From assembly GCA_003354045.1 (NCBI GenBank), contig PIVZ01000002.1, positions 1 through 42,183 on the forward strand: a stretch of 42,183 nt of DNA, given 5' to 3'. Below the pieces are notes generated by a model, which saw nothing but the letters and a program-made list of their open reading frames with translations, had not been told where the DNA came from and searched no databases. Of the stretch, positions 1-11,962 are shown in pieces. Numbering within the stretch: position 1 is the first letter of the stretch; every line of letters starts with the position of its first letter. A program made the position numbers and the translations under genes. This DNA is from a bacterium (lineage in GTDB: Bacteria > Desulfobacterota > Binatia > UBA1149 > CAITLU01).

Positions 1-119
1 CGGCAGCCTGCGCGTATCCGCCATTCGCCGTCAGCGCAGAGAACTGCATGCGCAAACGAGTAGCCGCGAGGATCGGCGACCGGCAGTAGATGGAATCCTT
101 TCGCCCTGCGGAGGTCCGC
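1..119. repeat. Terminal overlap, copy A. It is identical to 42065-42183, so the unit genome is 42,064 bp and circularly closed.
   Basis: Direct string comparison of both ends: cggcagcctgcgcgtatccgcc...cctgcggaggtccgc occurs at both. The overlap lies inside a coding region, which fits an assembly overlap better than a physical end. Confidence 0.95.
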
Positions 120-524
120 ATCGATGAGGTTCGCCCACCGGAGGTTCGCCCTGCGGAGGTCCGCCTCGCTGAGGTCCGCCCACCGGAGGTTCGCCCCGCT
201 GAGGTCCGCCCCGCTGAGGTTCGCCTCGCTGAGGTCCGCCCACCGGAGGTCCGCATCGATGAGGTTCGCCCACCGGAGGTTCGCCTCGCTGAGGTTCGCC
301 TCGCTGAGGTCCGCCCCGCGGAGGTTCGCCTCGCTGAGGTTCGCCTCGCTGAGGTCCGCCCCGCTGAGGTTCGCATCGCTGAGGTTCGCATCGCTGAGGT
401 CCGCCCACCGGAGGTTCGCCCTGCTGAGGTCCGCCTCGAGGAGGTCCGGGATCGCACCACCATCTGCGCGGTGTGCGTTCCAGGCAGTTACGTCGGTGCG
501 TAGCGTGTCGATTGTTACTTCCAT
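1..524 (-). CDS. Pentapeptide-repeat protein, 5' (N-terminal) part. The full gene is complement(join(41938..42064,1..524)), 216 aa.
   Basis: Hand translation: ATG at 524-522 preceded by GGGGGGAG. Product [29 protein letters not shown], then about 22 consecutive A(D/N)LXX pentapeptides ([20 protein letters not shown] ...). The frame is still open at base 1, which explains its absence from the ORF track. Confidence 0.85.
106..450. repeat. Tandem array of 23 units of 15 bp; consensus on the + strand is tcgctgaggtYcgcc.
   Basis: Counted unit by unit. Several units are exactly identical (tcgctgaggtccgcc x5, caccggaggttcgcc x4). The array encodes the pentapeptide repeats on the minus strand and leaves several other frames open. 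Confidence 0.95.
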
Positions 525-552
525 CACTCGCTCCCCCCGTCAACTTCCCAGA

Positions 553-1281
553 TCATTTGAGCAGCGCCTTGACTGCCTTGGCCCCATCGAATGCCTTCCG
601 AATCTGCAGGAAGTAGTCGATTGCAGGCTGAACTGCAGCGCGTGTCCAGCTGCGATGTTCGAACGAAGCGATCTCCTTACTGAAGCGCAGGATGTGGACC
701 TCGTCGACGGGACCGAATAGGTCGTCTTGGTTCTCCTCAAGCAGGATGGTGTACCCGCCGCCAACTTGTACGAGGTGGTCTGCGTAGATCCCGTTCGAAG
801 TTTTCCAGTCGGGGACGACGAGCCGGTTCTCCTTGTCGCGCGCCACGAAGTCGATCCGGCCTCCGAAGTTGTGCTTGTCGGAGATGAGTGGAAGCTCGGT
901 CGCGAGTGGCGTGAGGCCTTGGGAGTCATACCAGCGCTTGAACTGGTCGAGGCAGTTCTCGGCTTGCTCGACCTGCTCCACGGTGAGGTGGTCGTAGTCG
1001 CTATTGTTCGCCATCGGCACCCCGGTCACCCAGACGTCGATAAGGTCGTGAGCGTACGTCCCCGTGTCTGCAGCGGCGCCTGCGACGGCATTGTGGGACT
1101 TCCCCTCCCGCTTACCACACTGAGCGCAACGCTCTTGGTCAGCGCATACAGGGTGCTCTCCCGAGCCAACCTGGTTCGCCCAGAACATCAGGCCACCCGA
1201 CTCCTTGAACCTGTTCGTGATGGTGGTGACGCCGGGGACTATCTCGCCCTTCGAGTTGCGGTACTTCTTGTGGGTTGCCAT
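553..1281 (-). CDS. PD-(D/E)XK (RecB/Cas4-type) exonuclease, the partner of the ERF annealase.
   Basis: 242 aa. Motifs GGRIDFVARD ... VVPDWKTS (D...D-x-K) and QVGGGY (QxxxY). Lies immediately downstream of the ERF gene. Confidence 0.8.
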   Translation of the reverse strand: MATHKKYRNSKGEIVPGVTTITNRFKESGGLMFWANQVGSGEHPVCADQERCAQCGKREGKSHNAVAGAAADTGTYAHDLIDVWVTGVPMANNSDYDHLTVEQVEQAENCLDQFKRWYDSQGLTPLATELPLISDKHNFGGRIDFVARDKENRLVVPDWKTSNGIYADHLVQVGGGYTILLEENQDDLFGPVDEVHILRFSKEIASFEHRSWTRAAVQPAIDYFLQIRKAFDGAKAVKALLK

Positions 1282-1282
1282 C

Positions 1283-2005
1283 TCAGTTCTCCTCCGGTGG
1301 GGTGTTCTCGGCCGCGATTTCCTTGAGGCGGTCGATGAGCTTGACGTGCTCCTTCTCCGTGATCGTCTTCGTGCTGCGGCTGTTGCCTTCGTCGTCCAGC
1401 CCGAGCAACTCGTCTATCACCGAGCGGAGGAGAGTCTCACGCTCAGGTCTGTCGAGTCCGCACGCTTCTCCGGTGGTGTTGGTCTGCGCCCACAGGTGAC
1501 GGCCGCGGATCACTGCGTCGTCTTGGGGGGCGGGGGGGTCCTGCCTCTTCTGTCGAGCAGGGGCTCCAGCGGCGGGCTCCGGCGGGCGGCGGGCGGGGTT
1601 CGCGTCGTCGTCCTCCTCCTCGAATGCCACCCCGAGGATGCAGGCCGCAGCGTACCGCCTCATGTAGGAGAGTTCGCTGCCGAGATCTTGGGCGTTGCCG
1701 GTCCCCTTCACGGGCAGGGTTGAGGAGATTGATTCCCCGTTCTCGTACATGAGGCATGACCTGAGCGAGAGCTTTCCATCGCGAATCGAAGTGGAGTTCG
1801 TCAAAGAGAAGTGGTGCTTCGCGAGAAGCGGCCTCACCTCATCGAGCAGATGGTCGTAGGTCGCGTAGCTGTAGCTGAACGAGCCACCACCCTTCATCTT
1901 CACGGTGACCTCGCGGTTGCACTTGACCGTCTTGAACTCGGCCTGCATGCTCGCGAGAGCGGTCGCCATAGCGGCTCGTTCGGTCCTGTCCTGTTCATCA
2001 TCCAT
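1283..2005 (-). CDS. erf: ERF-family single-strand annealing protein.
   Basis: YSYATYDHLLDEVRPLLAKHHFSL and GSELSYMRRYAAACILGV match the ERF pattern as I remember it. The ATG at 2005 has GGAAGGGGA 7 nt upstream; the ORF-track start at 2011 is a GTG. Confidence 0.85.
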   Translation of the reverse strand: MDDEQDRTERAAMATALASMQAEFKTVKCNREVTVKMKGGGSFSYSYATYDHLLDEVRPLLAKHHFSLTNSTSIRDGKLSLRSCLMYENGESISSTLPVKGTGNAQDLGSELSYMRRYAAACILGVAFEEEDDDANPARRPPEPAAGAPARQKRQDPPAPQDDAVIRGRHLWAQTNTTGEACGLDRPERETLLRSVIDELLGLDDEGNSRSTKTITEKEHVKLIDRLKEIAAENTPPEEN

Positions 2006-2023
2006 CGTCACATCCCCTTCCAG

Positions 2024-2052
2024 TTGACCCCATTCTACACGTAGGGTAAGCT
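2024..2052 (+). promoter_or_regulatory. Putative sigma70-type promoter for the Cro-like gene: TTGACC - 17 nt - TAAGCT.
   Basis: Hexamers at 2024-2029 and 2047-2052. The ATG at 2060 has no SD and lies about 7-8 nt after the -10, so the mRNA would be leaderless. Confidence 0.45.
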
Positions 2053-2060
2053 CGGCGCAA
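2032..2060 (-). promoter_or_regulatory. Putative promoter for the leftward ERF/exonuclease/pentapeptide operon: TTGCGC - 17 nt - TAGAAT.
   Basis: Reverse complement of 2055-2060 is TTGCGC and of 2032-2037 is TAGAAT. The -10 is formed by one arm of the palindrome at 2034-2045. Confidence 0.45.
2034..2045. promoter_or_regulatory. Candidate operator O1: inverted repeat TCTAC-AC-GTAGG.
   Basis: The same TCTAC-NN-GTAG(A/G) element occurs at 6861-6872 and 14534-14545, each in a control region. This one sits between the divergent ERF and Cro-like genes. Confidence 0.5.
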
Positions 2061-2296
2061 TGAAGAAACTACGCGACGCCATGGAAACGAAGGGCTGGGA
2101 GATTGCAGAGACCGCACGCCGGTGCCATGTGACCGACCAGTCGATCCGAAACCTCTTGGGGGAGGGGGCAACTCGCCCCACTGTCCCCGCCAAGGTAACT
2201 GCGGTTACAATGGTGCGCCTGATGGAGGTGTTCTTCCCGATGTTGGATTTCGAGGACTTCGTGCCTGGTACTACGCTGAAGATCTTCAAGGCATGA
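2060..2296 (+). CDS. Cro/XRE-like helix-turn-helix regulator.
   Basis: 78 aa. HTH-like segment WEIAETARRCHVTDQSIRNLLGEG. First gene of the rightward early island. Confidence 0.75.
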   Translation: MKKLRDAMETKGWEIAETARRCHVTDQSIRNLLGEGATRPTVPAKVTAVTMVRLMEVFFPMLDFEDFVPGTTLKIFKA

Positions 2297-2487
2297 CGAC
2301 GAAGATTCGGATGTGTTGCGATTGTGATTGGTCCGCGGGTGGAGTCACGCCAGGAGGGGAGGATGTGTTCGAGTGTCGAGCGAGGCCTCCTGTACTACGC
2401 CCAGACAACGCGCTCTTCAATGCCTTGTGGCCTGTCGTGATGGCGGAGGACTGGTGTCGCGAGTACTCCGAGATCGATGATGAGTGA
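2293..2487 (+). CDS. Small Cys/Trp-rich hypothetical protein.
   Basis: 64 aa. ATG at 2293 overlaps the upstream stop (ATGA). Product MTTKIRMCCDCDWS...WPVVMAEDWCREY. Confidence 0.55.
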   Translation: MTTKIRMCCDCDWSAGGVTPGGEDVFECRARPPVLRPDNALFNALWPVVMAEDWCREYSEIDDE

Positions 2488-2806
2488 GAAGCCTGTCATG
2501 AAGCCGGAGTTCTGGCAGATGCTGGCTGACGTCCGACCCCACGGCCGAGAACTCACCGCCGCAGATGTTGAGAGTTGGTTCGATCTGAAGTGGCCCTCGT
2601 ACTCGGCCAGCGGATACCGCAACCACAAGAAGGCCATCGCTTCGTGGTGGGCGCGTGTGTGGGAGAGCGAGATCGATGCGGCTATCGAACGTCGCGTTGC
2701 CATCGAAGACCTCGACGAGACCCGCAGGCTCGAAGCGCAACTCTCAGACGATGCAGAGGAGCGGGCTGAGACGCCGAACCACTTCCTCCAACTCGTGAAC
2801 AGGTAA
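2477..2806 (+). CDS. Hypothetical protein.
   Basis: 109 aa. Overlaps the upstream stop by 11 nt. Plausible composition and operon position; no motif recognised. Confidence 0.55.
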   Translation: MMSEKPVMKPEFWQMLADVRPHGRELTAADVESWFDLKWPSYSASGYRNHKKAIASWWARVWESEIDAAIERRVAIEDLDETRRLEAQLSDDAEERAETPNHFLQLVNR

Positions 2807-2829
2807 CCCGGCTGCTATGAGGAGTACGT

Positions 2830-3711
2830 GTGTTGTCAGACCATGATCGGTTTCTGCTTGGGCTCGAGCCCACCGCCACGCTAAGAGCCTGCAAGGCACT
2901 CCACGAAGCCCTGCAACTGAGAACCGAGAACACGTACTACAACATGGGCGAGTTACCCCCCGAAGAGGATCTGAAGCAATGGCCCTCGACGCTCGACTAC
3001 ATCGAGACTCAATGCGGCGGGTTCTACGGCATGAGTGTCATCGTTGGGGAGAAGGGCGCGGGCAAGACCATGCTGTGTATCGCATCTGCGATCGAGGCGG
3101 CGGCGAGTGGGAATTGGCAAGTCGTATACCTATGTGCCGAAGATGACATCCACGGCTTCGCGTATCGCTTCAATACCTACGTTGAGGCTCACCCAAGTGC
3201 GGCCGACTGTTTCGAGAACTTCCACTTCATCCACGTTGGCAAAGGCCAGGACCCCGCGTCACTCACTGCGGAGATCTTCGGGGTGCTCGACCAGCGACTC
3301 GATATCCCACTACTCGTTTGCATGGACTCGATCAACTCAATCGTGAACCTCGGCTCTGGCGACTACCTCAAGACGCTGAAGGAGTTTGGGATCTGGGCGA
3401 TGTTGAGCAGGCGGATCTCCGGGGCTGATGTGAGTTGGATGATCACGAGTGAGACGAACAAGTCAGGCAATGCGAAGGGCGAGGCTCTGCCGTTCTGGGC
3501 TGACGTCGTGATGCGGATCAAGAGCGCGAAGGACTCCGACGTGGTGGTGATGATGGATCTGGTCAAGTCTCGGCGTACGAGTCTCGGTCCAAGTGGCGGT
3601 GCGATGGGCAAGCTGGGACGCAATGTGAAGATTGGGAGGTTCGAACCTGAACATTTCACCCCGCGGCTGGTGGCGGTGGACGGAGGAGGGGGACACTTTG
3701 GGGAACTCTGA
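2830..3711 (+). CDS. RecA/DnaB-superfamily P-loop ATPase (putative replicative helicase or loader).
   Basis: 293 aa. GTG start with AGGAG upstream. Walker A GEKGAGKT and Walker B-like LLVCMDS. Confidence 0.8.
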   Translation: MLSDHDRFLLGLEPTATLRACKALHEALQLRTENTYYNMGELPPEEDLKQWPSTLDYIETQCGGFYGMSVIVGEKGAGKTMLCIASAIEAAASGNWQVVYLCAEDDIHGFAYRFNTYVEAHPSAADCFENFHFIHVGKGQDPASLTAEIFGVLDQRLDIPLLVCMDSINSIVNLGSGDYLKTLKEFGIWAMLSRRISGADVSWMITSETNKSGNAKGEALPFWADVVMRIKSAKDSDVVVMMDLVKSRRTSLGPSGGAMGKLGRNVKIGRFEPEHFTPRLVAVDGGGGHFGEL

Positions 3712-4084
3712 AGAGACGAAGACCGAGGAGCAACTCCACGAAGAGAACCACCGGGAGATCGCAACCCGCCTGGGCTCCGAGTTCGCGAAGATCTCGAGAA
3801 CCTTCCTGCCTGTGATGGGCGAGGCATTGGGCCGAACCGAGAAGGACATCACGTTTGGCTGCACAGTGACGATGAGGCGCGGCAAGGACCGTCTCGTCAT
3901 CTGCAAGATCAAAGCGAACGAGCCGAAGATCCCCACCGAGCCGATCGAGCCGGTCCACTTCGTCTGTGAGCGGTCCAAGATCGGAGAGCAGATGGCCTTC
4001 GTTTGGCCGGGTACGCTGAAGTCATTTCGCGCCGAGCTCGCGGATCGCGATGTTAGACCCGATCAGAAGCCAGGGGATGAGTGA
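3698..4084 (+). CDS. Hypothetical protein; start uncertain.
   Basis: ORF 3632-4084. TTG at 3698 follows GGAGGAGGGGGA. The earlier part of the ORF overlaps the ATPase gene. Confidence 0.45.
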   Translation: MGNSEETKTEEQLHEENHREIATRLGSEFAKISRTFLPVMGEALGRTEKDITFGCTVTMRRGKDRLVICKIKANEPKIPTEPIEPVHFVCERSKIGEQMAFVWPGTLKSFRAELADRDVRPDQKPGDE

Positions 4085-4532
4085 TCTGCGGGTCTGGCAC
4101 CTCCGCTTCGACGACCAGCCGCTACCCAAGACCCAAGCCGACGTCATGAAGAGGTGGGCGAGGGCAAAATACCGCACATTCTGGCACTCTCGGGTCCGAG
4201 AAGAGGTTCTCTGCTCCGGTGGCCCACCCCCATCTCCGCTCCTGTATGCCGCTGTGCGGGGCGAACGCCACTCGTCGAGTAGACCAGACCGGATCAACGT
4301 CTGGTACTCGTTCAAGGCGATCGTCGACGGCCTCAACCTGCATGTCATCCTGGACGACAACCCAGGAGTGATCATCCACGAGGATTACCAATGGGTGAAG
4401 GCCCCTCCGAAGAATGGCTTCGTGACGCTGGACGTGTATGAGTTGAGAGGTCCGGAGGATCGAGTCCCTTGGCTACCATACGCTCAGGCTGAAGTATCCC
4501 CACCCATACCGCCCAATCCGGCTCAGGGCTGA
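4077..4532 (+). CDS. RusA-like Holliday-junction resolvase.
   Basis: 151 aa from ATG 4077, which overlaps the upstream stop region. RPDRINVWYSFKAIVDGL...ILDDNPGVI resembles the RusA D-x-D-N...K...D-x-L...DD core (recalled E. coli RusA [25 protein letters not shown]). Confidence 0.6.
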   Translation: MSDLRVWHLRFDDQPLPKTQADVMKRWARAKYRTFWHSRVREEVLCSGGPPPSPLLYAAVRGERHSSSRPDRINVWYSFKAIVDGLNLHVILDDNPGVIIHEDYQWVKAPPKNGFVTLDVYELRGPEDRVPWLPYAQAEVSPPIPPNPAQG

Positions 4533-4737
4533 ACGTATTCACGTAGTGCAGTTCGACGAACCGCAGCTTCCCGCCCTTCTTGCGCCTTGAGATCTTGCAC
4601 GACCTCAGCACGTAGCCTCGGGGCTGGTTGTCGTCGGCGTACCTGTAGGTATTGCACGCTGCTTCGAGGTCGACCGCGTGGAGTCGAGCGTAGACCGAGC
4701 GCCCGTCTGCTTCGATGGTGAAGTCTTCCTTCCTCAT
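4372..4737 (-). CDS. Hypothetical protein. Its tail overlaps the RusA-like gene convergently.
   Basis: 121 aa from ATG 4737, which forms an ATGA overlap with the upstream micro-ORF stop. The N-terminal two thirds (MRKEDFTIEADGRSVYARLHAVDLEAACNTYRY...) look like a real protein. Confidence 0.5.
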   Translation of the reverse strand: MRKEDFTIEADGRSVYARLHAVDLEAACNTYRYADDNQPRGYVLRSCKISRRKKGGKLRFVELHYVNTFSPEPDWAVWVGILQPERMVAKGLDPPDLSTHTRPASRSHSSEGPSPIGNPRG

Positions 4738-4841
4738 CGGACCATGCACCAGATCCATCCGACGAGGACGAAGGCCCCAGCCCACAGCCCGCTCGCGACG
4801 GCAAACGCCTCGGGCCACCCCAACAACTCTTCGCACTCCAT
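4734..4841 (-). CDS. 35-aa single-pass membrane micro-protein (not in the ORF track).
   Basis: Hand translation gives MECEELLGWPEAFAVASGLWAGAFVLVGWIWCMVR. ATG at 4841 lies 8 nt after GGAGG. Both ends are translationally coupled to their neighbours (TAGATG upstream, ATGA downstream). Confidence 0.35.
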   Translation of the reverse strand: MECEELLGWPEAFAVASGLWAGAFVLVGWIWCMVR

Positions 4842-5150
4842 CTACTCCCCCTCCACCATCTCGGCCAGCTTATGTGATTCCTCCGATTCGTCCATCATCA
4901 TCTCAAGTGCCTCCTGGTCGGGCACTGCCGGCTCGGCCAAGATGTGGTTCGCCTCCATCCCATCGACCTCGTCCACAGTGCGCCCGTCGAACCCAACCTG
5001 CTTGCCGATGAGGTCCCAAGCCTCGTTGACTCGCCTCGTGTAGAGAGAGTTCGTGTCGTGGGCTGAGTGGATCCCCTCCCCGCGCTGGTACTCGCAGACC
5101 TTCGACAGGAAGGAGAGTTGCTTGTTGGTGAGGATGAAGCGCTGTTTCAC
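4842..5150 (-). CDS. Hypothetical acidic-tailed protein.
   Basis: ORF 4842-5216. GTG at 5150 forms a GTGA overlap with the upstream stop and has GAAGGGGA upstream. 102 aa. Confidence 0.55.
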   Translation of the reverse strand: MKQRFILTNKQLSFLSKVCEYQRGEGIHSAHDTNSLYTRRVNEAWDLIGKQVGFDGRTVDEVDGMEANHILAEPAVPDQEALEMMMDESEESHKLAEMVEGE

Positions 5151-5692
5151 TTCGCAATCCCCTTCATGCCACCCAGCTTGATCCAAGAGTCCACCGCCTC
5201 GCGAGAACCGCGGCACTGGGCGGGGGCGTGGACGTGGATCCAGGTCATGGTCGCCCGCAGGTCGTCGATAGTGTCGATAGTGCTGCTGACGACGACGCTG
5301 GAGAACAGTCTCAGATCATTCATGAATAGCGCGGCGACGAATCCGCGTTCTTGACCCGATACGTCGCCATCCAACACGTAGTTGACCATGGACGCATGGA
5401 GATGGGATGGCACCTTAAGCGTCTCAGCCCCCCCCCTCATCCAGCGCTCTTGCGTCTCCCAGTCAGTCAGGATGGAGGGCGGGGTGATCTCCGGAGACGT
5501 GTCCACCGCGATGGACTGTGGCTCAAGGATCCGCAGCGCCGCCTTCGATACCACCTCCACCACGTCGCCGAGCCTGTCGATCGACTCGCGGAGGTCGATC
5601 AGGATGTGGAGTTGCTGTTCTTGGGCCATGTCGTTGGGGTCGACGGTCGCTCCATCGCTCAAGTCTACCACTTGCTCGTGCTTGATTGCCAT
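5147..5692 (-). CDS. Conserved-looking hypothetical protein.
   Basis: 181 aa from ATG 5692, 1 nt after the recombinase stop. C-terminal segment VNYVLDGDVSGQERGFVAALFMNDLRLF...WIHVHAPAQCRGSREAVDSW resembles a widespread small phage family whose name I cannot place. Confidence 0.65.
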   Translation of the reverse strand: MAIKHEQVVDLSDGATVDPNDMAQEQQLHILIDLRESIDRLGDVVEVVSKAALRILEPQSIAVDTSPEITPPSILTDWETQERWMRGGAETLKVPSHLHASMVNYVLDGDVSGQERGFVAALFMNDLRLFSSVVVSSTIDTIDDLRATMTWIHVHAPAQCRGSREAVDSWIKLGGMKGIAK

Positions 5693-5693
5693 C

Positions 5694-6242
5694 TCAGTCC
5701 CTCGCTCCCATCTGTTCCGCCGCAGACTGCTCGATGGCCAATCCATCAAGGTAAATCTGGGTGGTGAGTAGGCTCTTGTGGCCCAGAATCTTCTGAATCA
5801 CCCGAACCTCGAAACCCTCCTTCATCAGATCCCGCGCGCAACAATGGCGAAGAGCGTGGGGGTTGATGTCGGGGTGGATGTACTTCATGCGGCTTAGAGT
5901 CCTGCGGAAAGTCGAGGTCGCCGCCTGGTGGCCGTGGCAGGTGTCGAGCAGCCAGCCAGACTTCCTGCGGCGGACCTGACGAGTGATGAACTTGGCGTAA
6001 ATCGCGCCGATTCGAACATCTCGAGCCACCCCGCCCTTCCCTCGGGCGATTCGAACTCGGATCTGGCCGCCCGACAGCTCCTTCAGGTCGCCCACCTTCA
6101 AGCACCGCGCCTCATCGCTGCGGAGGCCACCTCGCCACATCAAAACCACCATCGCCTTGTCGCGGGTCTTCTTGAGCTTCTGGAGCAACTTCTCGGGGAT
6201 CCCCGGCGGCAGAGCCTTCTCGGTGATGTTGCGGGGCCTCAT
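5694..6242 (-). CDS. Tyrosine recombinase, catalytic domain only.
   Basis: 182 aa from ATG 6242 (ATGA overlap). Full catalytic set is visible: R (GGLRSDE), K (ARGKGG), H-x-x-R (HALRH), H (LGHKS) and Y (TTQIYL). Only about 25 aa precede the first Arg box. Confidence 0.85.
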   Translation of the reverse strand: MRPRNITEKALPPGIPEKLLQKLKKTRDKAMVVLMWRGGLRSDEARCLKVGDLKELSGGQIRVRIARGKGGVARDVRIGAIYAKFITRQVRRRKSGWLLDTCHGHQAATSTFRRTLSRMKYIHPDINPHALRHCCARDLMKEGFEVRVIQKILGHKSLLTTQIYLDGLAIEQSAAEQMGARD

Positions 6243-6718
6243 TGGGAGAGTACTTCGCGAAGGCGGATGAGTTGCCATTCGTCCTCGGCCCCGGCGGTGG
6301 CACTGGCGGTGGCCCGGGCTGCCCTGGCGGCGGCCCTGGCCGCCTGCTGAGCGTCCGCCAGCTCTTCCGATGTGGCCTCGTTATTCGCAAAGCTGCGCAC
6401 CACGTCAAGCGTGTCTGAGGGCTGCCAAGTGCAGCCCGGTGGAGCAACCCAGAGGTGCGAAACGTGTTCGGCGAAATCTGCCGCGAGGAGTCTCGCAGTG
6501 CGCGCGTCCAGCACCTCGGCGCGTAGCAACAGCCACAATACGTCAGCGCATGGGATATCCAGATCACAAGCCTCGACAAGAGTGATCTCCTCACGACCCC
6601 CGGTGATGGAGAGTAGTTTCTCTCGCCCGTCGTAGCTCGGCGCGCAAGGACCCCAGCCAAGAACGGTATCGATGGTGAGCTTGGTCATTGTCATCATCGC
6701 GCCACTGATCTCTTCCAT
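6239..6718 (-). CDS. Hypothetical protein with an Ala/Arg-rich C-terminal segment.
   Basis: 159 aa from ATG 6718 (GGGAGG 7 nt upstream). Contains WGPCAPSY...DVLWLLLR...AQQAARAAARAARATASATAG. Confidence 0.6.
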   Translation of the reverse strand: MEEISGAMMTMTKLTIDTVLGWGPCAPSYDGREKLLSITGGREEITLVEACDLDIPCADVLWLLLRAEVLDARTARLLAADFAEHVSHLWVAPPGCTWQPSDTLDVVRSFANNEATSEELADAQQAARAAARAARATASATAGAEDEWQLIRLREVLSQ

Positions 6719-6860
6719 GATGTTGCCTCCCGTGGGCATCGTCGCGCCCGTCTACGTTCATATGTGCAGCCACCGTTGGCCCAGATTGCCCAAGCCAACC
6801 CAACCCCCCCAGGCGGTCCCTCGATGAGGAGTTTCCTCGTGAAGAAGGTGGCCGCACCCA

Positions 6861-6872
6861 TCTACGTGTAGG
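6861..6872. promoter_or_regulatory. Candidate operator O2: inverted repeat TCTAC-GT-GTAGG.
   Basis: Lies in the 171-bp intergenic region upstream of the 6718 operon. On the minus strand, TTGACT (6893-6888) is followed by 17 nt and then TACACG, the same geometry as at 14566-14538. Confidence 0.4.
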
Positions 6873-6889
6873 GGATCGGGAGACGAGAG

Positions 6890-7117
6890 TCAATGGGTCC
6901 AATTACCCGAGCCCGTCTTCTGGGGTGTGGGGAGATTGGCCCGCCCGTCTACCACCACCGCGAGCTCCCTTAGCGACTGGCCGATGTGGTGGGCGGCGAG
7001 TGAGATGTGGTGCTGTTCGGTCTCGTCGACGGGAGACTTGAGCCGGTGGCTCATCCCCGCCAGCAGATCGCTCAGGTCGGCGATGTGGGCCGCGAGTTGT
7101 CGGTCATCCATTCCCAT
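6890..7117 (-). CDS. Hypothetical protein.
   Basis: 75 aa. ATG at 7117 preceded by AGGAGGGA. Confidence 0.55.
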   Translation of the reverse strand: MGMDDRQLAAHIADLSDLLAGMSHRLKSPVDETEQHHISLAAHHIGQSLRELAVVVDGRANLPTPQKTGSGNWTH

Positions 7118-7204
7118 TGGTCGTTCCCTCCTGTGTTGTGGCTGCGATGATCGCCCTGGCCAGCATCCTGCCCATCGGGATAGGCTCCTCGGTGGGCCTG
7201 ATCT

Positions 7205-7795
7205 TCATGGGGCCTCTACCTCCCGGAGCGCGTGATATCTGCGCCAGTCTCCACCCCCGCTACCCTGAACGATCCGGCCCCGCTTTATACGCGGCTCTCG
7301 ATACTCCGCCCACGGGAATCGTCTCCGCAGGGTGGTATCTCTCACCGCGAGGCATCCCTCGCGTGCCGAGTCTGGTCGAAGCGGAAATACCCAGCGATCC
7401 TTTACGCTTTGCGGCCCACTACCCCAGTTGCCGTTGCCACTCGGGGGCGGGCGCAGGCGATGCCATGTGGGAGCCCAGGCCCAGCCACACGCGCGGTACA
7501 ATGCGCCGTCATGCCCCACTGCGGGGTCTGAGTAGCTCACGACGGTTGTCGGGGATCCGCTCCACGCCCGCAGCCATCCCAGCAGCCCACCCCACTGACG
7601 CGTGCCGGCGTTCGTGGCGCCGCTCACGATGCACCATCTAGATATTTCCAACCACTCGGTCGGGAGGCGTCTGCCTGTTGGGCTGGCGAGAACGATCACG
7701 CCATATTCATCCGACCATGCGATACCCCGACGGGTGGCGCCGAGGTAGTGATGTTCTGCGAGTATATGGTTCACCCTACGGAGCGCATCGATCAT
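7205..7795 (-). CDS. GNAT-fold protein of the XF1762/Mom-like type (putative DNA-modifying acyltransferase).
   Basis: 196 aa. Motif series EHHYLG ... WLEISRW ... NAGTRQW ... VVSYSDPAVGHDGALYRACGW matches my recollection of this family. No HMM check was run. Confidence 0.55.
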   Translation of the reverse strand: MIDALRRVNHILAEHHYLGATRRGIAWSDEYGVIVLASPTGRRLPTEWLEISRWCIVSGATNAGTRQWGGLLGWLRAWSGSPTTVVSYSDPAVGHDGALYRACGWAWAPTWHRLRPPPSGNGNWGSGPQSVKDRWVFPLRPDSAREGCLAVRDTTLRRRFPWAEYREPRIKRGRIVQGSGGGDWRRYHALREVEAP

Positions 7796-7847
7796 CTCCC
7801 GCCGCCCTCCCGGAGCGTTGGTCTTTCCTCCCCTTCGTGCCGGCCGT

Positions 7848-8210
7848 TCACGTCTTGTACGCCTTCAACGATTCCCGGCCGTTCATTTTCGTTACGTCGA
7901 TCTCCCAGCGTTCCGCCTCTTCTTGGATGGCGGACAGCGCGGCACTTTCAAGCTCATGAACCCGTACTTTGCCGGGGTACCACTTGTCGCGATTAGGCAA
8001 CGCATGCAGATATCCGCCGAGGATCACCACACGGCGTAGGCTCTTCTCCTGATCACTGAGCATCTTGAATCGCATTCTCTTCTCGTAGGTCCCGCTGCCT
8101 TCGGTACCGATCCACCGGATGAATCTCAGTTCCCGCAGTTGTCCCCAGTTTTTGAGGCCGCCTGACTGGTCTTCGGTTTTCGCTGGGGTTCTGACTTTGC
8201 CTACCGTCAT
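7848..8210 (-). CDS. Hypothetical protein.
   Basis: 120 aa from ATG 8210 (GGGGAGAGG upstream). The longer ORF-track version, 7848-8450, has an implausible N-terminus. Confidence 0.55.
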   Translation of the reverse strand: MTVGKVRTPAKTEDQSGGLKNWGQLRELRFIRWIGTEGSGTYEKRMRFKMLSDQEKSLRRVVILGGYLHALPNRDKWYPGKVRVHELESAALSAIQEEAERWEIDVTKMNGRESLKAYKT

Positions 8211-8277
8211 CCCGCCTCTCCCCTCGGCCCGTCGCCCTGATAGACTTTTCCTCGTTTTACTCGATCCTTGTCCGGCA

Positions 8278-8463
8278 TCAACCTGTCCCCCGTAGATCTC
8301 GGCCCCGCTCGGCGTCGTAACTGGTGCCGTGCTCGGCTTTGTACCGCTCTCTCCACTGCACCTGAGCGGACTTCTTGCAGCAGTGCTTGTTCGGCACGTT
8401 CTCAAGAACGTCGTGCACCCATGCTCGGTGCGTTCCGATGGTCCCATCACAGTGAGGGCACAT
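8278..8463 (-). CDS. Small Zn-finger protein (Com-like by size, Cys layout and position).
   Basis: 61 aa from ATG 8463, overlapping the methyltransferase stop by 1 nt. Product MCPHCDG...(22 aa)...HCCKK. Confidence 0.5.
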   Translation of the reverse strand: MCPHCDGTIGTHRAWVHDVLENVPNKHCCKKSAQVQWRERYKAEHGTSYDAERGRDLRGTG

Positions 8464-9191
8464 CACAGCGCACCCCCCATGTTGAGCACTTCTTGCCCCA
8501 TCCTCTCCGCCGCGATCTCGCAATACTTCTCCTCTATCTCGATGCCGATGGCCTTGCGGCCCAAGTCCTTCGCGGCGCGCAGAGTGGTGCCGCTGCCCAT
8601 GAAGGGGTCAAGGACGGTGCCGCCTTCGGGCACCGAACATCCAATTGGAATTGCGACAAGGCACTCACGCATCTGCGTTGGGTGACCATTTTTCCCCGGC
8701 TGCCCGTGTCTGTATGCGTCGGCCTCAATCACATTAGACCTCGGGGTATCCGATGGGCTCGGCACCCACTCACGCCCAGGCTTGTATGCGTAAAGGCAGA
8801 GGCTCGCGCCACTAGGCCATCCCGCCCCAGGTGGCGGCGGAGCAGGGCATTTACGCGCCCACACGAGGAACCTAGTAATCCACCCGTCATCCTCAAAGAC
8901 GCTTGTGGCGAGAGAAAATTGCTGGTGGCCTAGCCATGCGTAAACGGTCAGAGCGCCGGTCAATTCCGCTGCTCGCCGGATTGTTTCGACATGGGCTAGG
9001 CCGCAGCACATATCGTCATTCTCAAAGAAAACCACGCGGCGTCTGCGTCCGTGAGTCGCCTTTGCCCCTACCCCAGATAGTCCATATGGCGGGTCTGTCA
9101 CCACCGCATCCACCTTTGGCAGCGTTGGCAGTATCTCCCGGCAGTCGCCGTGATAGATCGTGATGCCAGCCTCGTCGTAGTACGGCTTCAC
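8463..9191 (-). CDS. Beta-class amino DNA methyltransferase (N6-adenine or N4-cytosine).
   Basis: 242 aa. Motif IV DPPYG lies near the N-terminus and motif I DPFMGSGTT near the C-terminus. GTG start with GAGGGGGG upstream. Confidence 0.9.
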   Translation of the reverse strand: MKPYYDEAGITIYHGDCREILPTLPKVDAVVTDPPYGLSGVGAKATHGRRRRVVFFENDDMCCGLAHVETIRRAAELTGALTVYAWLGHQQFSLATSVFEDDGWITRFLVWARKCPAPPPPGAGWPSGASLCLYAYKPGREWVPSPSDTPRSNVIEADAYRHGQPGKNGHPTQMRECLVAIPIGCSVPEGGTVLDPFMGSGTTLRAAKDLGRKAIGIEIEEKYCEIAAERMGQEVLNMGGAL

Positions 9192-9225
9192 TTCACCCCC
9201 CTCAAGCTTGATGGCAGTGGTCGAG

Positions 9226-9276
9226 CCCGTCTACCAGGCTGGGCCCGTCTGTGGATCGGCAGAGCTGCGCCCGTCT
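9226..9276 (+). repeat. Three direct copies of CCCGTCT (gagCCCGTCTACc, gggCCCGTCTGTg, gcgCCCGTCTTTc) upstream of the methyltransferase operon.
   Basis: Copies at 9226, 9244 and 9270, inside the 158-bp intergenic region 9192-9349. Related copies at 6747, 6912, 6944, 11053, 12033 and 4702, all in the same orientation. Confidence 0.6.
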
Positions 9277-9349
9277 TTCGAGCGTCGCACGACTGCGCAA
9301 TCGGACAAGAGAGCAGCCCCCACTACCCTCTTGCGCCCATCGTCCAGCC

Positions 9350-10156
9350 TCACCTCGACTGCAGAAACCTCTCAGCCCTTGATCGGTGGCCATCACGGTC
9401 GGCCGCTGCCTTGAAGTAGAGCCCTACCGCAACGGTCGACGGATCCATGAAACGGGCGTCTGTCTCGTCGCCCGATATCACCCGACGGCCCCGGAATCGA
9501 GCGGGCAGCGCGTCTGATTTGGTGGAGTCAAAGACTACGGCCACGTTGAATCCACGAGGGACGCTCCGAGACTTCTCGCTCCAAGAGTAGGTGAGATGGT
9601 AATTCGCGAGTTTCTTAGACCGCTCGAGTCGTGACTCAACTTTGGTGTAATCGTAGAATCGGACATTGGGGTGGCGAGTCGAGAGGATGGCGCCGTAGCC
9701 AGTATCGCTCGAACCGTCGAATCTGACTGCTGGCACCATCCCGAGTCGATCGGCCTTTCGCTCGAGCGCCCGCACCTCGAGGTCTATCAGCTCACCGAAG
9801 AGAGATCGAGACCCGAGAAACAAAGCCGTCTTCCAGAGCCGCGCCCGCTTGCTGGGACTCATTGAAAGCATGCCCGAATTGTGACCCAAACAGATATCAC
9901 CGCACTCGCCAGCCTTGGGACACAGTGACCGATGAGGAGTTGAGGTGCCAGCGAATGCCTCGGAATGAGGCGACATATAGCCGACCGCGGTCAGGATCCC
10001 GATGGCGTCGCCTTTCAGAGTCTTTACCGATGCTCCGAGTATCTCCACCCGATGCGATGGGAAGCAACGGAGCGCCTCTCGCGATACTCCGGAGCGCTTT
10101 ACGATCGCATGCCACTCGGAACGGATTTGACGAACTACCTCAGCCCGGCGCCTCAT
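9350..10156 (-). CDS. Conserved phage protein with a Cys-rich motif (possibly GP88 family).
   Basis: 268 aa. SLCPKAGECGDICLGHNSG ... VPAVRFDGSSD. The family assignment is from memory only. Confidence 0.65.
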   Translation of the reverse strand: MRRRAEVVRQIRSEWHAIVKRSGVSREALRCFPSHRVEILGASVKTLKGDAIGILTAVGYMSPHSEAFAGTSTPHRSLCPKAGECGDICLGHNSGMLSMSPSKRARLWKTALFLGSRSLFGELIDLEVRALERKADRLGMVPAVRFDGSSDTGYGAILSTRHPNVRFYDYTKVESRLERSKKLANYHLTYSWSEKSRSVPRGFNVAVVFDSTKSDALPARFRGRRVISGDETDARFMDPSTVAVGLYFKAAADRDGHRSRAERFLQSR

Positions 10157-10482
10157 GACCGAGAACAGCGGGCCAGAGTACGGCCGTCAATTATCTCGAT
10201 CACATGGTTCTCGTAGAGCGCTTGACCAGACTCGCGGCACTTCACCATCTCAGCCTGTGCAGCGTCGGGCATCCGATCGACAACACCATCCCAGCACGAA
10301 GTGCACCGGATCGACATAGAAGATGGGTTCTTGTGAGTGACGAGAGTACACTTGCGAAAGTCAAGAACCGTCCCGCATTCCTGACAATAGATCGCACGAC
10401 CCACTGCATATTTCAGGGTTTCGCGGTGCATCTTGCGTTCGAGGGGGGAGAAGATGGGATCTGAATTGATGGCGGTATTCAT
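10153..10482 (-). CDS. Zn-ribbon protein.
   Basis: 109 aa from ATG 10482 (GGAGAA upstream). CQEC ... CTSC. The stop overlaps the next start (ATGA). Confidence 0.6.
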   Translation of the reverse strand: MNTAINSDPIFSPLERKMHRETLKYAVGRAIYCQECGTVLDFRKCTLVTHKNPSSMSIRCTSCWDGVVDRMPDAAQAEMVKCRESGQALYENHVIEIIDGRTLARCSRS

Positions 10483-11473
10483 TGGGTGGTTCTCCAGTGG
10501 TCTCTCTCGACCGATCAAAGGCTGGGCTTCAATGCCCGGCCCACACTCTCTACGGCATCCGACCAAACTTCCACAGTGCCAATCTATGAGGCAGGCGCAG
10601 CTTTAAGTGGCGGGGTGATTTAACCACAGGTACCAGATCAACTCCCATTCATCTGCGCTCCGGTACTTGAAGTGAGAGAGTAGATCGAGGGGGGTGCAGC
10701 TTCTGTACTGCAGTGGGTGAATCACTACGAACAGTCGTTAGTTGAATTGTACGGTGAATGGGTGGGTTATTGGGAAGCACTACTACGGTAGGGTGAGAGG
10801 TATTGATGGACGAGGCCAGCTCGACTCAACTAAATGCCTTGATCCAGATGCATTGATAAAGGGATGAGCAGACAGGTTGACTGTCGAATGTACTGAGAAT
10901 CGACTCGATCTAGGTGCTGTAGACAGTGACGAGAGGCTGAGGGTCAACCTATTGAGTCTGGGATCGGATCGGGTCCCTTTGGGTCGGGCCAGGAGACCCC
11001 CCCCTACCCCCTTTTTGGGGCCCCAACGCGCGCCCGGCGCCTATGCGTGGGACCCGTCTGTGTATGAACTCATCCAGGATCCCCTCTGCCCCAGAACTCC
11101 CCCAAATATCCAGGCAGATGTCCTTCTGATCATGAGTTTTATCGGGTACTTGTGGTGATATTTGCTGGTTTGGTGTCCACTGGAGGGATGCACCGGGAAG
11201 TCGTTCTGGTGCAGTGGGGGCAGAGGTGGTCGAGTTACCTGATCCACCATTTGAAGAGGTTGATGAGGTGGTTCATCTCTCCTCTAGACCTCCCGAAGAC
11301 CTGGTGTTTTGGAGGGGTTGATGCAGGGCCCATTTTCCGAGCTCGAACAGGAATTGGGAAACCCGGTGCACTTGGACTGCGTGGTTGGAGTACTCCACTA
11401 TCGATCTGGAGCGGATTCGTCAAGGGGTGTGGTGGGTGACTTTAACGCTGTTATAGAGACTATCATCCTGATT
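10483..11473. other. 991-bp region with no convincing ORF and lower G+C (candidate origin, attP, ncRNA or decayed insert).
   Basis: Only short, mutually overlapping, SD-less ORFs. Hand-counted G+C is 43-50% in three 60-nt lines, against 55-67% in two coding lines. Confidence 0.6.
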
Positions 11474-11857
11474 TTATTGAGATTCTCGCCATCCAACTAT
11501 TTCTCCGTGGCGGTTGAATACGGGCTCAGTTCGGCGTTCGTAGATGTGGGCGAACTTCCGATCCCACTCTCGTCCGAGTTCTTCCCTCCACCTCTCCATC
11601 TTCTCCTCGGTGGTGATCTTCTGGATCTCAGGGACGGGTCTTTTGAGGCTCGAGATATCATTGAGATCCACCTCTTCGGCGTGGATGAGCCTGGCCTGCT
11701 CTCCGTGTGGGTTGGAGCGGTATCTGGCCTGGTTCTCGCCGTACCCAGACCGCCCCGCCTTGGTCTCGCTCCAATCGGTATCCCCAAGCGCCACGTCCCA
11801 AGGGTCGTAGGTCGAGTAGTCTCGGGGCCCCAATGAGTCGGCGTGGATCCGCTTCAT
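11474..11857 (-). CDS. Hypothetical protein.
   Basis: 127 aa. Protein-like composition (MKRIHADSLGPRDYSTYDPWDV...). Last gene of the RHH/HTH operon. Confidence 0.6.
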   Translation of the reverse strand: MKRIHADSLGPRDYSTYDPWDVALGDTDWSETKAGRSGYGENQARYRSNPHGEQARLIHAEEVDLNDISSLKRPVPEIQKITTEEKMERWREELGREWDRKFAHIYERRTEPVFNRHGEIVGWRESQ

Positions 11858-11962
11858 CCCAAGAGTGAACCAAGCGCGGCGGCGGCTGGCAAGAGGTGGA
11901 ATTCACCCTGCAGCCAATTGTTGCACTTGGAACACTCTCCCCTGCCTACGCAACCAGAGATC

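What the first reader, a model, noticed from the sequence alone, without database searches (positions are those of the whole stretch)
7205..9349. Methyltransferase / Com-like Zn finger / Mom-like GNAT operon: a candidate self-contained DNA-hypermodification module
One leftward operon encodes four products in order:
- a beta-class amino-DNA-methyltransferase (8463-9191; DPPY then FMGSGTT);
- a 61-aa Zn-finger protein whose start overlaps the methyltransferase stop (8278-8463; CxxC, about 22 aa, then HCC);
- a 120-aa unknown (7848-8210);
- a 196-aa protein (7205-7795) with the HHY...ELSR-like...SY-D..GH.G.lY.A.GW motif series, which I associate with the XF1762/Mom-like GNAT-fold family.

In phage Mu, Mom (adenine N6-methylcarbamoylation, anti-restriction) is translationally activated by the 62-aa zinc-finger protein Com, encoded just upstream. 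Its transcription also depends on DNA methylation. Here a similar set of parts, plus a dedicated methyltransferase, sits in one unit behind a triple CCCGTCT repeat. A Cys-rich GP88-like gene (9350-10156) and another Zn-ribbon gene (10153-10482) lie directly upstream.

The combination could install more than simple methylation on the phage DNA. Neither the chemistry nor the role of the 120-aa protein can be read from the sequence.
Basis: partly seen in the sequence, partly recalled or inferred. Interest (0 to 1): 0.7.

Follow-up and report, generated by a model that had tools for sequence, protein, structure and literature searches.

The report
Stand-alone Mom-like DNA-modifying enzyme in phage
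A metagenomic phage carries a distant relative of the phage Mu Mom enzyme, which decorates adenines in DNA to escape host restriction, next to an ordinary DNA methyltransferase, but the small zinc-finger gene between them is not a Com-like regulator and the four genes are not a conserved unit.

Summary
The four leftward ORFs exist as described. The 196-aa product (7205-7795) belongs to the Mom family. It passes Pfam PF25680's cut-off. A profile of its homologues finds only Mu Mom in the PDB, and its pLDDT-92 model matches Mom best. Six residues needed in Mu Mom are conserved, but the essential Ser124 is Thr here and Arg151 is absent. It belongs to a divergent clade: 1,492 database clusters, no tblastn match in 50,697 cultured-phage records.

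The 242-aa product is a common beta-class (DPPY, then FMGSG) amino-methyltransferase.

The "Com-like" reading fails. The 61-aa protein shows no similarity to Com, is separated from the Mom-like gene by the 120-aa gene, and no hairpin masks the Mom-like start. Its only homologue lies on a contig with no Mom-like gene. None of 67 Mom-like loci carries the 61-aa or 120-aa gene. Only 5 of 50 have a small Cys-rich ORF upstream, against 8 of 50 downstream.

Methyltransferases are modestly enriched beside Mom-like genes (8 of 218 flanking ORFs against 0-1 of 150 distal). They vary in type and position.

Verdict: two independent DNA-modification genes in a mosaic early arm. This is a new member of a known kind, and its chemistry is untested.

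The parts
7205..7795 (-). 196-aa Mom-family GNAT, the candidate DNA base-modifying enzyme. Mu residues H58/Y59, R111, S124, D149 and Y159 correspond to H16/Y17, R53, T65, D90 and Y100.
   Evidence: Pfam PF25680 scores 29.9 bits against a 27.1 cut-off, and PHROG 1384 matches at 1.3e-8. The homologue profile hits only 8bv8 in the PDB (E 0.0089), and hhalign against Mu Mom gives E 2.7e-5. The AF2 model has pLDDT 92, and Foldseek's best PDB match is Mu Mom (E 1e-5, TM 0.54). Residue conservation over 120 homologues is.
7848..8210 (-). 120-aa protein with no cysteines, predicted helical, function unknown. It belongs to a small phage-only family that is not linked to Mom.
   Evidence: It has no Pfam, NCBIfam or PHROG match. 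Only two true relatives were found: 77% identity and P0125 at 1.7e-31 (53% identity by tblastn). dN/dS is 0.236. The relatives lie on contigs without a Mom-like gene. The AF2 model has pLDDT 56 and is not interpretable.
8278..8463 (-). 61-aa CxxC...HCC protein whose start is coupled to the methyltransferase stop (TGATG). It is not a Com homologue.
   Evidence: ORF and junction are. It has no significant family match. BLASTP against Mu Com gives E 0.28. It has one homologue at 78% identity, with all Cys/His ligand candidates conserved. dN/dS is 0.105, and the TGATG junction after a methyltransferase gene is the same in L076.
8463..9191 (-). 242-aa beta-class amino-DNA methyltransferase without a restriction partner, probably N6-adenine specific. 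It has a GTG start preceded by GAGGGGGG.
   Evidence: Pfam N6_N4_Mtase matches at 1.3e-23 and PHROG 67 at 4.5e-52. DPPY is at aa 33 and FMGSG at aa 197. The best solved relative is the adenine methyltransferase 5hek (1.1e-19). Relatives occur in 1,040 cultured-phage records.
9225..9276 (-). Three direct copies of AGACGGGC, with start-to-start spacings of 26 and 18 nt, upstream of the methyltransferase start. This is a candidate operator or promoter-associated element.
   Evidence: Simulated sequences rarely give such a triple (5 of 100). All 7 exact copies in the window lie on the minus strand between 4701 and 9276.
9305..9334 (-). Stem-loop of 13 pairs (several G-U) with a 4-nt loop, just after the GP88 stop and without a U-tract. 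It may mark a transcript boundary.
   Evidence: RNA fold of 9170-9352: -81.7 kcal/mol, z = -2.42. The consensus terminator scan does not call it.
9350..10156 (-). GP88-family protein of 268 aa, function unknown. It is the upstream neighbour and not part of the modification genes.
   Evidence: Pfam GP88 matches at 3.8e-27 and PHROG 1617 at 1.7e-47. A GP88-family ORF flanked a Mom-like gene in only 1 of 105 upstream ORFs examined.

Best explanation
The window is a complete, circularly assembled phage genome of about 42 kb. Its leftward early, DNA-metabolism arm carries two independent DNA-modification genes.

- The first is a common beta-class amino-methyltransferase without a restriction partner, probably N6-adenine specific.
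- The second is a divergent Mom-family GNAT. By analogy with Mu Mom, I infer that it acts on double-stranded phage DNA after replication. It would take an aminoacyl group from a charged host tRNA (glycine from Gly-tRNA-Gly in Mu), transfer it to the N6 of a flipped-out adenine, and the adduct would rearrange to N6-carbamoylmethyl-adenine. That modification blocks host restriction enzymes.

The Mom-like enzyme needs no phage-encoded partner. The 61-aa zinc-finger-like and 120-aa proteins are real small early proteins of unknown function, placed between the two enzymes by mosaic recombination. They are not parts of a Com/Mom-type circuit.

Shown here: family membership, fold, conservation of catalytic residues, lack of conserved partners, and real coding status of the small genes. 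Inferred: the donor, the target base, the product and the anti-restriction role.
For: Mom-family membership:
- Pfam Mom scores above its cut-off, and PHROG 'Mom-like' matches.
- The profile of 30 homologues hits only Mu Mom among 177,635 PDB sequences, and hhalign gives E 2.7e-5.
- The pLDDT-92 model matches 8bv8 best, ahead of generic GNATs. BFVD matches include an annotated Mom and Mom-endonuclease fusions.

Catalytic residues:
- Six residues are needed for Mu Mom activity and conserved among Mom homologues: H58, Y59, R111, S124, D149 and Y159 (PMC7261163, PMC13219725).
- They align to H16, Y17, R53, S/T65, D90 and Y100. Over 120 homologues: R53 is Arg in 115 of 115 matched sequences, D90 Asp in 120 of 120, Y100 Tyr in 116 of 119, and position 65 is Ser in 104 and Thr in 8.
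- R111 is specific to Mom rather than to GNATs in general (PMC7261163).

Acting alone:
- Mu Mom is a single enzyme that uses host Gly-tRNA (PMC13219725).
- No neighbouring gene family is conserved in the 68 sequences compared (67 other loci plus this window). The 61-aa, 120-aa and GP88 genes are absent from 67 loci.
- Flanking genes are replication and recombination genes such as DNA polymerase A, helicases, RusA and RecT.

Small genes are unlinked to Mom.

The methyltransferase is ordinary.
Against: - Identity to Mu Mom is only about 17% and TM about 0.5. The Pfam score is just above its cut-off and covers only aa 44-108.
- The essential Mu residue R151 aligns to A92, which is S, A or G across the family.
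- The window protein has Thr where Mu has the essential Ser124.
- The HTH-like insertion essential in Mu (residues 175-209) cannot be aligned by sequence. This clade instead has an invariant WAPTWHRLRPPP segment and a different C-terminus.
- No member of this clade has been assayed, as far as I could find.
- Methyltransferases are modestly enriched next to Mom-like genes (8 of 218 flanking ORFs against 0-1 of 150 distal; p 0.014-0.06). Some functional interplay therefore cannot be excluded.
Confidence: 0.6

Rival explanations
1. The four genes form one functional module in which the 61-aa zinc-finger protein activates translation of the Mom-like gene, as Com does in Mu, and the dedicated methyltransferase controls or cooperates with it.
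For: - The genes are co-directional and closely spaced or overlapping, and sit behind a triple repeat.
- The zinc-finger candidate is the same size as Com (61 against 62 aa).
- Methyltransferases are somewhat enriched beside Mom-like genes.
Against: - There is no sequence similarity to Com.
- The ligand pattern is CxxC...HCC rather than Com's two CxxC pairs.
- The 120-aa gene lies between the 61-aa gene and the Mom-like gene, whereas com overlaps mom in Mu.
- The Mom-like start region has no stable structure (z = +0.95).
- The 61-aa homologue occurs on a contig without a Mom-like gene.
- 0 of 67 Mom-like loci carry the 61-aa gene.
- Small Cys-rich ORFs are no more common upstream (5 of 50) than downstream (8 of 50) of Mom-like genes.
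Confidence: 0.06
2. The 196-aa protein is a Mom-family GNAT with a different chemistry. It could use another aminoacyl-tRNA or an acyl-CoA donor. Or it could act on another base, on already methylated adenine, or on RNA or protein rather than DNA.
For: - The clade is deeply divergent, with R151 missing and a clade-specific invariant segment WAPTWHRLRPPP...KDRW.
- The C-terminal half cannot be aligned to Mu Mom.
- Silva et al. state that GNAT donor and acceptor cannot be predicted from structure (PMC13219725).
- The gene lies in an early arm, whereas Mu expresses mom late.
Against: - The Mom-specific R111 equivalent and five further active-site residues are retained.
- The gene is carried by phages, next to DNA-metabolism genes.
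- The nearest solved structure is Mom, not another GNAT.
Confidence: 0.25
3. The 61-aa zinc-finger-like protein is functionally tied to the methyltransferase, for example as a regulator or DNA-binding accessory, rather than to Mom.
For: In both known occurrences, the 61-aa gene starts at a TGATG overlap with the stop of an N6_N4-type methyltransferase gene. The two methyltransferases have diverged beyond tblastx detection, while the 61-aa genes are 81% identical in DNA.
Against: Only two occurrences are known, so shared ancestry of the junction explains it as well. No family match suggests a function. Most phage methyltransferases of this type have no such partner (inference annotations).
Confidence: 0.15

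Closest known systems
Phage Mu Mom (PDB 8bv8; Pfam PF25680), a Gly-tRNA-dependent adenine N6 carbamoylmethylase
   Same: - Both have the GNAT fold, and Mom is the best solved match.
- The window protein passes the Pfam family cut-off.
- The H-Y, Arg (Mu R111), Ser/Thr (S124), Asp (D149) and Tyr (Y159) positions are conserved.
- Both are phage-borne and similar in size (196 against 231-241 aa).
   Different: - Identity is about 17%.
- The R151 equivalent is missing, and the window has Thr for Ser124.
- The HTH-like insertion is not recognisable by sequence, and a clade-specific WAPTWHRLRPPP insertion follows helix alpha-4.
- There is no com gene.
- The gene lies in the early, replication arm rather than at the late end of the genome.
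- The clade has no tblastn match in the 50,697 cultured-phage records searched.
Phage Mu Com, a 62-aa zinc-finger translational activator of mom
   Same: Small size (61 aa), an N-terminal CxxC, and a position upstream of a Mom-family gene on the same strand.
   Different: There is no detectable homology. The ligand pattern differs. The gene is not adjacent to or overlapping the Mom-like gene. There is no target hairpin. It does not co-occur with Mom-like genes elsewhere.
Phage beta-class N6/N4 DNA methyltransferases without a restriction partner (Pfam PF01555; for example the DpnA-type enzyme 5hek, and CcrM-like enzymes)
   Same: Motif order is DPPY before FxGxG. The full length matches 5hek at 1.1e-19. 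It falls in PHROG 67. Relatives occur in more than 1,000 cultured-phage records.
   Different: Nothing notable. The target sequence is unknown.
Mom-REase fusion 'momylation' systems of jumbo phages (Iyer et al. 2021, PMC7824862)
   Same: The Mom-family GNAT domain. Several BFVD structural matches are such fusions, annotated as endonucleases.
   Different: The window protein is a single domain with no nuclease fused to it or next to it.

Membership tests
Mom family (Pfam PF25680) | Scores above the curated Pfam cut-off | tested here: met
   29.9 bits against a 27.1 cut-off, covering aa 44-108 only. All 120 listed homologues carry a precomputed PF25680 hit.
Mom family (Pfam PF25680) | GNAT fold with Mu Mom as the nearest solved structure | tested here: met
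   The model has pLDDT 92. 8bv8_B matches at E 1e-5 with TM 0.54/0.52; the next match is a generic GNAT at 4.8e-4.
Mom family (Pfam PF25680) | Active-site residues H58, Y59, R111, S124, D149 and Y159 (Mu numbering) are conserved | tested here: met
   They align to H16, Y17, R53, T65, D90 and Y100. They are invariant or nearly invariant across the clade. Position 65 is Thr in the window, Ser in 104 and Thr in 8 of the 112 homologues where the motif could be read.
Mom family (Pfam PF25680) | R151, essential in Mu Mom | tested here: not met
   It aligns to A92. The clade has S, A or G at this position.
Mom family (Pfam PF25680) | HTH-like insertion (Mu residues 175-209), essential for activity | tested here: inconclusive
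   The sequence alignment stops at residue 108. The model has short helices at 145-159 after a beta strand at 133-138, which might be equivalent. No structural superposition was available.
Mom family (Pfam PF25680) | Installs N6-carbamoylmethyl-adenine on dsDNA using Gly-tRNA-Gly | not testable with these tools
   Needs biochemistry or mass spectrometry.
Com (Mu translational activator of mom) | Sequence homology to Com | tested here: not met
   No Pfam or NCBIfam match at E <= 0.1. BLASTP against Mu Com gives E 0.28.
Com (Mu translational activator of mom) | Gene directly upstream of mom and overlapping it | tested here: not met
   In Mu, com ends 80 nt inside mom. Here the 120-aa gene and two spacers separate the two genes: the 61-aa gene ends at 8278 and the Mom-like gene starts at 7795.
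Com (Mu translational activator of mom) | A stem-loop that masks the mom start and is opened by Com | tested here: not met
   The fold of 7760-7870 gives z = +0.95, no better than shuffled sequence.
Com (Mu translational activator of mom) | Co-occurrence with Mom-family genes | tested here: not met
   0 of 67 Mom-like loci carry the 61-aa gene. Its only homologue is on a contig without a Mom-like gene. A Cys-rich small ORF lies upstream in 5 of 50 loci and downstream in 8 of 50.
Beta-class amino-DNA methyltransferase (Pfam PF01555) | Pfam match, with motif IV (DPPY) N-terminal to motif I (FxGxG) | tested here: met
   Pfam 1.3e-23. DPPY at aa 33 and FMGSG at aa 197.
   No NCBIfam family matches the 196-aa protein at E <= 0.1.

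The most novel reading that the evidence does not exclude
This uncultured-phage clade of Mom-like GNATs has an invariant WAPTWHRLRPPP segment, no R151 equivalent and a different C-terminal half. It could install a DNA modification other than N6-carbamoylmethyl-adenine, for example another amino acid taken from a charged tRNA. It could also act together with the neighbouring N6-adenine methyltransferase on the same adenines. That would explain the modest enrichment of methyltransferases beside these genes.
Probability: 0.12. Interest if true: 0.75.

Novelty: new member of a known kind. Interest (0 to 1): 0.35.

Why it matters
Mom is the only known enzyme that takes an amino acid from a charged tRNA to hypermodify DNA, and its mechanism was established only in 2026 (PMC13219725). 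This window gives a complete genome context for a large, deeply divergent Mom-like clade. The clade has 1,492 clusters in public metagenomes and no tblastn match in the 50,697 cultured-phage records searched. Testing one member would show how far tRNA-dependent DNA modification extends and whether the chemistry varies. The specific claim that made the finding attractive, a Com/Mom-type regulatory module with its own methyltransferase, does not hold. What remains is a useful but unsurprising annotation.

Tried and rejected
- DNA similarity of 7000-10500 to cultured phages found only short methyltransferase matches.
- A single-sequence PDB search with the 196-aa protein found nothing relevant. 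A profile was needed.
- NCBIfam has no model for the 196-aa protein.
- All-against-all clustering of ORFs within 3.5 kb of 68 Mom-like genes found no conserved neighbour. The top clusters were the Mom gene and its shadow frames.
- The 200-aa and 81-aa alternative ORF extensions were rejected on codon statistics and homologue lengths.
- An exhaustive HMMER search for the 120-aa protein found one further true relative. The three weaker hits (to long or repeat-rich proteins, one a peptidase) I judged spurious.
- The AF2 model of the 120-aa protein was too poor (pLDDT 56) to justify a fold search.
- The supplementary files of Silva et al., with the sequences of the active 'Mom homologs A and B', are not held. 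I could not test whether an assayed homologue belongs to this clade.
- The consensus promoter and terminator scan gave nothing useful in 6700-11900.
- A 23-codon ORF (8210-8281) bridging the 61-aa and 120-aa genes with TGATG/ATGA overlaps has no coding signal and no counterpart in L076. I treat it as a spacer.
Full report
**Observation**

- The 242-aa ORF (8463-9191) starts at a GTG preceded by GAGGGGGG. It carries DPPY at residue 33 and FMGSG at residue 197, the beta-class order of motifs.
- The 61-aa ORF (8278-8463) begins at an ATG that overlaps the methyltransferase stop as TGATG. It has C2-x2-C5, then 21 residues, then H27-C28-C29.
- The 120-aa ORF (7848-8210) and the 196-aa ORF (7205-7795) follow. 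A 52-nt gap separates them.

Longer alternative ORFs exist: 81 aa from a TTG at 8523, and 200 aa from a GTG at 8450. Three lines of evidence favour the short calls. The public gene calls for this contig are 61 and 120 aa, and the homologues are 61 and 121 aa. dN/dS between the window and the homologous contig L076 is 0.105 for the 61-aa gene and 0.236 for the 120-aa gene. Both are therefore real protein-coding genes.

The triple repeat is real. AGACGGGC, read on the minus strand, lies at window coordinates 9269-9276, 9243-9250 and 9225-9232. In first-order Markov simulations of the window, a triple 8-mer within 60 nt arose in only 5 of 100 sequences.

**The 196-aa protein is a Mom-family GNAT**

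- It scores 29.9 bits against Pfam PF25680 (Mom), above the 27.1 cut-off, over residues 44-108.
- It matches PHROG 1384, 'Mom-like DNA modification protein', at 1.3e-8 over residues 9-106.
- A database search found 1,492 clusters at E <= 0.001. The best 120 are 55-67% identical to the window protein, and all of them carry a precomputed PF25680 hit.
- A profile of 30 homologues (alignment A1) hit one sequence among 177,635 distinct PDB sequences: Mu Mom, 8bv8 (E 0.0089). hhalign against Mu Mom gave E 2.7e-5.
- An AlphaFold2 model built on A1 has mean pLDDT 92. Its best Foldseek match in the PDB is 8bv8 (E 1e-5, TM 0.54), followed by generic GNAT acetyltransferases.
- In the viral structure library the matches are uncharacterised phage GNATs, an annotated Mom, and long proteins annotated as endonucleases. 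The last group fits the Mom-REase fusions described by Iyer et al. (PMC7824862).

**Active-site comparison**

Karambelkar et al. (PMC7261163) and Silva et al. (PMC13219725) identified residues needed for Mu Mom activity. In the 241-aa numbering these are H58, Y59, R111, S124, D149, R151 and Y159. They also found W48, W181 and an HTH-like insertion at residues 175-209 to be important. I checked the numbering on the Mu sequence itself.

In the profile alignments the Mu residues map onto the window protein as follows.

| Mu Mom residue | Window residue | Conservation in the clade (120 homologues) |
|---|---|---|
| H58 / Y59 | H16 / Y17 | His in 119 of 120; H16 and Y17 invariant in the 30-sequence alignment A1 |
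| R111 | R53 | Arg in all 115 where the motif could be read |
| S124 | T65 | Ser in 104, Thr in 8 |
| D149 | D90 | Asp in 120 of 120 |
| R151 | A92 | Ser, Ala or Gly |
| Y159 | Y100 | Tyr in 116 of 119 |

R111 matters most here, because it is conserved among Mom homologues but not among GNATs in general (PMC7261163).

Two features do not carry over. The essential R151 has no equivalent. The sequence alignment ends at residue 108, so the HTH-like insertion cannot be assessed. This clade instead has an invariant WAPTWHRLRPPP segment after helix alpha-4, a conserved KDRW strand, and a variable C-terminus.

The window protein also has Thr at the position of the essential Ser124. The hydroxyl group is kept, and Thr recurs in 8 homologues, so I do not read this as inactivation.

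**The methyltransferase is ordinary**

It matches Pfam N6_N4_Mtase at 1.3e-23 and PHROG 67 at 4.5e-52. Its best full-length solved relative is an adenine-specific enzyme, 5hek (1.1e-19). tblastn finds relatives in 1,040 cultured-phage records, mostly phages of Mycobacterium and Gordonia. From general knowledge of these enzymes, DPPY rather than SPPY/F points to N6-adenine specificity. The target sequence is unknown.

**The Com analogy fails every test I could apply**

- The 61-aa protein matches no Pfam or NCBIfam model. Its PHROG matches are weak (E 0.016-0.037) and to families of unknown function.
- BLASTP against Mu Com gives E 0.28.
- In Mu, com ends inside mom. Here the whole 120-aa gene lies between the two.
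- The RNA around the Mom-like start folds no better than shuffled sequence (z = +0.95).
- The 61-aa protein has a single homologue in 5.8 billion clusters, at 78% identity. That homologue lies on a 2,994-bp contig, L076.

The gene order on L076 is: the C-terminus of a different N6_N4-type methyltransferase (GRRFIGAELKESY...), the 61-aa gene at the same TGATG overlap, ORFs of 65, 134 (RusA-like by eye), 34 and 74 aa, the 120-aa homologue, and three unrelated genes. There is no Mom-like gene. Only the 61-aa and 120-aa genes are shared with the window at the DNA level, at 80-81% identity.

An exhaustive HMMER search added one further true relative of the 120-aa protein (P0125, 1.7e-31). It lies on phage contigs of 35-38 kb, and tblastn found none of the window's methyltransferase, 61-aa, Mom-like or GP88 genes in the sequence held (up to 6 kb each side).

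**No conserved module across the clade**

I collected 7 loci from exact-protein look-ups, 60 IMG/VR loci and 6 loci from metagenome-assembled genomes.

- tblastn with the window's proteins against 67 of these loci found the 61-aa, 120-aa, GP88, 75-aa and 166-aa genes in none. It found a related methyltransferase in 4.
- All-against-all clustering of ORFs within 3.5 kb of the Mom-like gene found no neighbour family in more than 5 loci.
- A Pfam scan of 218 flanking ORFs, two on each side, gave DNA methyltransferases 8 times (5 N6_N4 and 3 C5) and DNA polymerase A 6 times. It also found helicases, RusA, RecT and similar genes.
- Among 150 control ORFs lying 3-6 kb away in the same loci, no methyltransferase family appeared in the 25 families listed of 29.
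- The difference gives p = 0.014, or p = 0.06 if one unlisted control hit is allowed.

Methyltransferases are therefore modestly enriched next to Mom-like genes, in about one locus in eight. Their type and position vary. I read this as clustering of DNA-modification genes in the replication arm, not as an obligate partnership.

Small Cys-rich ORFs lie within 600 nt upstream of the Mom-like gene in 5 of 50 loci, and downstream in 8 of 50. This clade has no Com-type partner.

**Genome setting**

The contig ends share an exact 119-bp overlap, which indicates a complete circular assembly of about 42,064 bp.

- The leftward arm (about 1-11,857) encodes an exonuclease, an Erf-like annealing protein, a short integrase-like protein, the genes discussed here and GP88.
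- The rightward arm, from 11,843, encodes the large terminase, portal, scaffold and tail proteins.
- A 13-pair stem-loop (9305-9334) follows the GP88 stop. The intergenic region folds better than shuffled sequence (z = -2.42). The three AGACGGGC copies and the methyltransferase ribosome-binding site come next.

This layout is compatible with a transcription unit starting there, but that is not shown.

**Mechanism**

The best-supported reading is that the 196-aa enzyme works as Mu Mom does. On this reading it binds double-stranded DNA and a charged tRNA acceptor end. It transfers the aminoacyl group, glycine in Mu, to adenine N6. The adduct then rearranges to N6-carbamoylmethyl-adenine, which blocks restriction enzymes (PMC13219725).

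Family membership, fold and active-site conservation are shown here. The donor, the acceptor, the product and the biological role are inferred. The divergence of the clade leaves real room for a different donor or product.

**Novelty and score**

Mom-family genes in phages are known and catalogued in Pfam, in PHROGs and in the literature. This is a new member of a known kind.

The clade is large in metagenomes and gave no tblastn match in 50,697 cultured-phage records. In one-per-species reference genomes it appears only in six metagenome-assembled genomes, from Hyphomicrobium, Hyphomicrobiaceae, Alcaligenaceae, Myxococcota, Solirubrobacteraceae and one unclassified marine bacterium.

The feature that drove the original interest, a Com/Mom-like circuit with its own methyltransferase, is not supported. 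Interest: 0.35.

Noticed in passing
window 1-119 and 42065-42183: The first and last 119 bases are identical. The contig is therefore a circularly closed assembly, a complete phage genome of about 42,064 bp.
   Followed up: partly
window 100-448: A tandem array of a 15-nt unit (TTCGCCCCGCTGAGG), about 22 copies with a 45-nt super-period. It lies inside overlapping ORFs 31-543 (-) and 124-720 (+). The minus-strand product has a weak match to a pentapeptide-repeat family, GETHR (E 2.3e-4).
   Followed up: partly
window 4701-9276: All 7 exact copies of AGACGGGC in the window are on the minus strand and fall within 4.6 kb of the leftward arm. By my own base-composition estimate, about 2.5 copies would be expected on both strands of the whole window. 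Besides the triple at 9225-9276, one copy lies 6 nt upstream of the start of the 166-aa gene (6746-6753), and three copies share the longer form GTAGACGGGC. This may be a regulator-binding motif.
   Followed up: partly
window 8210-8281: A 23-codon ORF (MPDKDRVKRGKVYQGDGPRGEAG) links the 61-aa and 120-aa genes through TGATG and ATGA overlaps. It has no coding signal and no counterpart in L076, where four other small genes occupy this position. It is probably a recombination scar.
   Followed up: partly
L076 1-302 and window 8278-8580: In both known occurrences, the 61-aa zinc-finger-like gene starts at a TGATG overlap with the stop of an N6_N4-type methyltransferase. The two methyltransferase C-termini are unrelated at the tblastx level, while the 61-aa genes are 81% identical. 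The mosaic junction lies exactly at the gene boundary, or the 61-aa gene is linked to methyltransferases.
   Followed up: partly
window 5694-6278: A short (194 aa) tyrosine-recombinase-like ORF that matches only the C-terminal catalytic part of phage integrases. It overlaps the end of the 166-aa gene, which is weakly Imm5-like and matches PHROG 18326.
   Followed up: no
Loci L002-L074 (Mom-like clade): DNA methyltransferases (5 N6_N4, 3 C5) and family-A DNA polymerases (6) are the most frequent Pfam families among the 218 ORFs flanking Mom-like genes. Neither appears among the listed families for 150 ORFs lying 3-6 kb away.
   Followed up: yes
window 10483-11860: The lowest G+C content in the window (0.54-0.57) lies at the boundary between the leftward and rightward arms. 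It holds only small ORFs and several short direct and inverted repeats. This is a likely regulatory or origin region.
   Followed up: no
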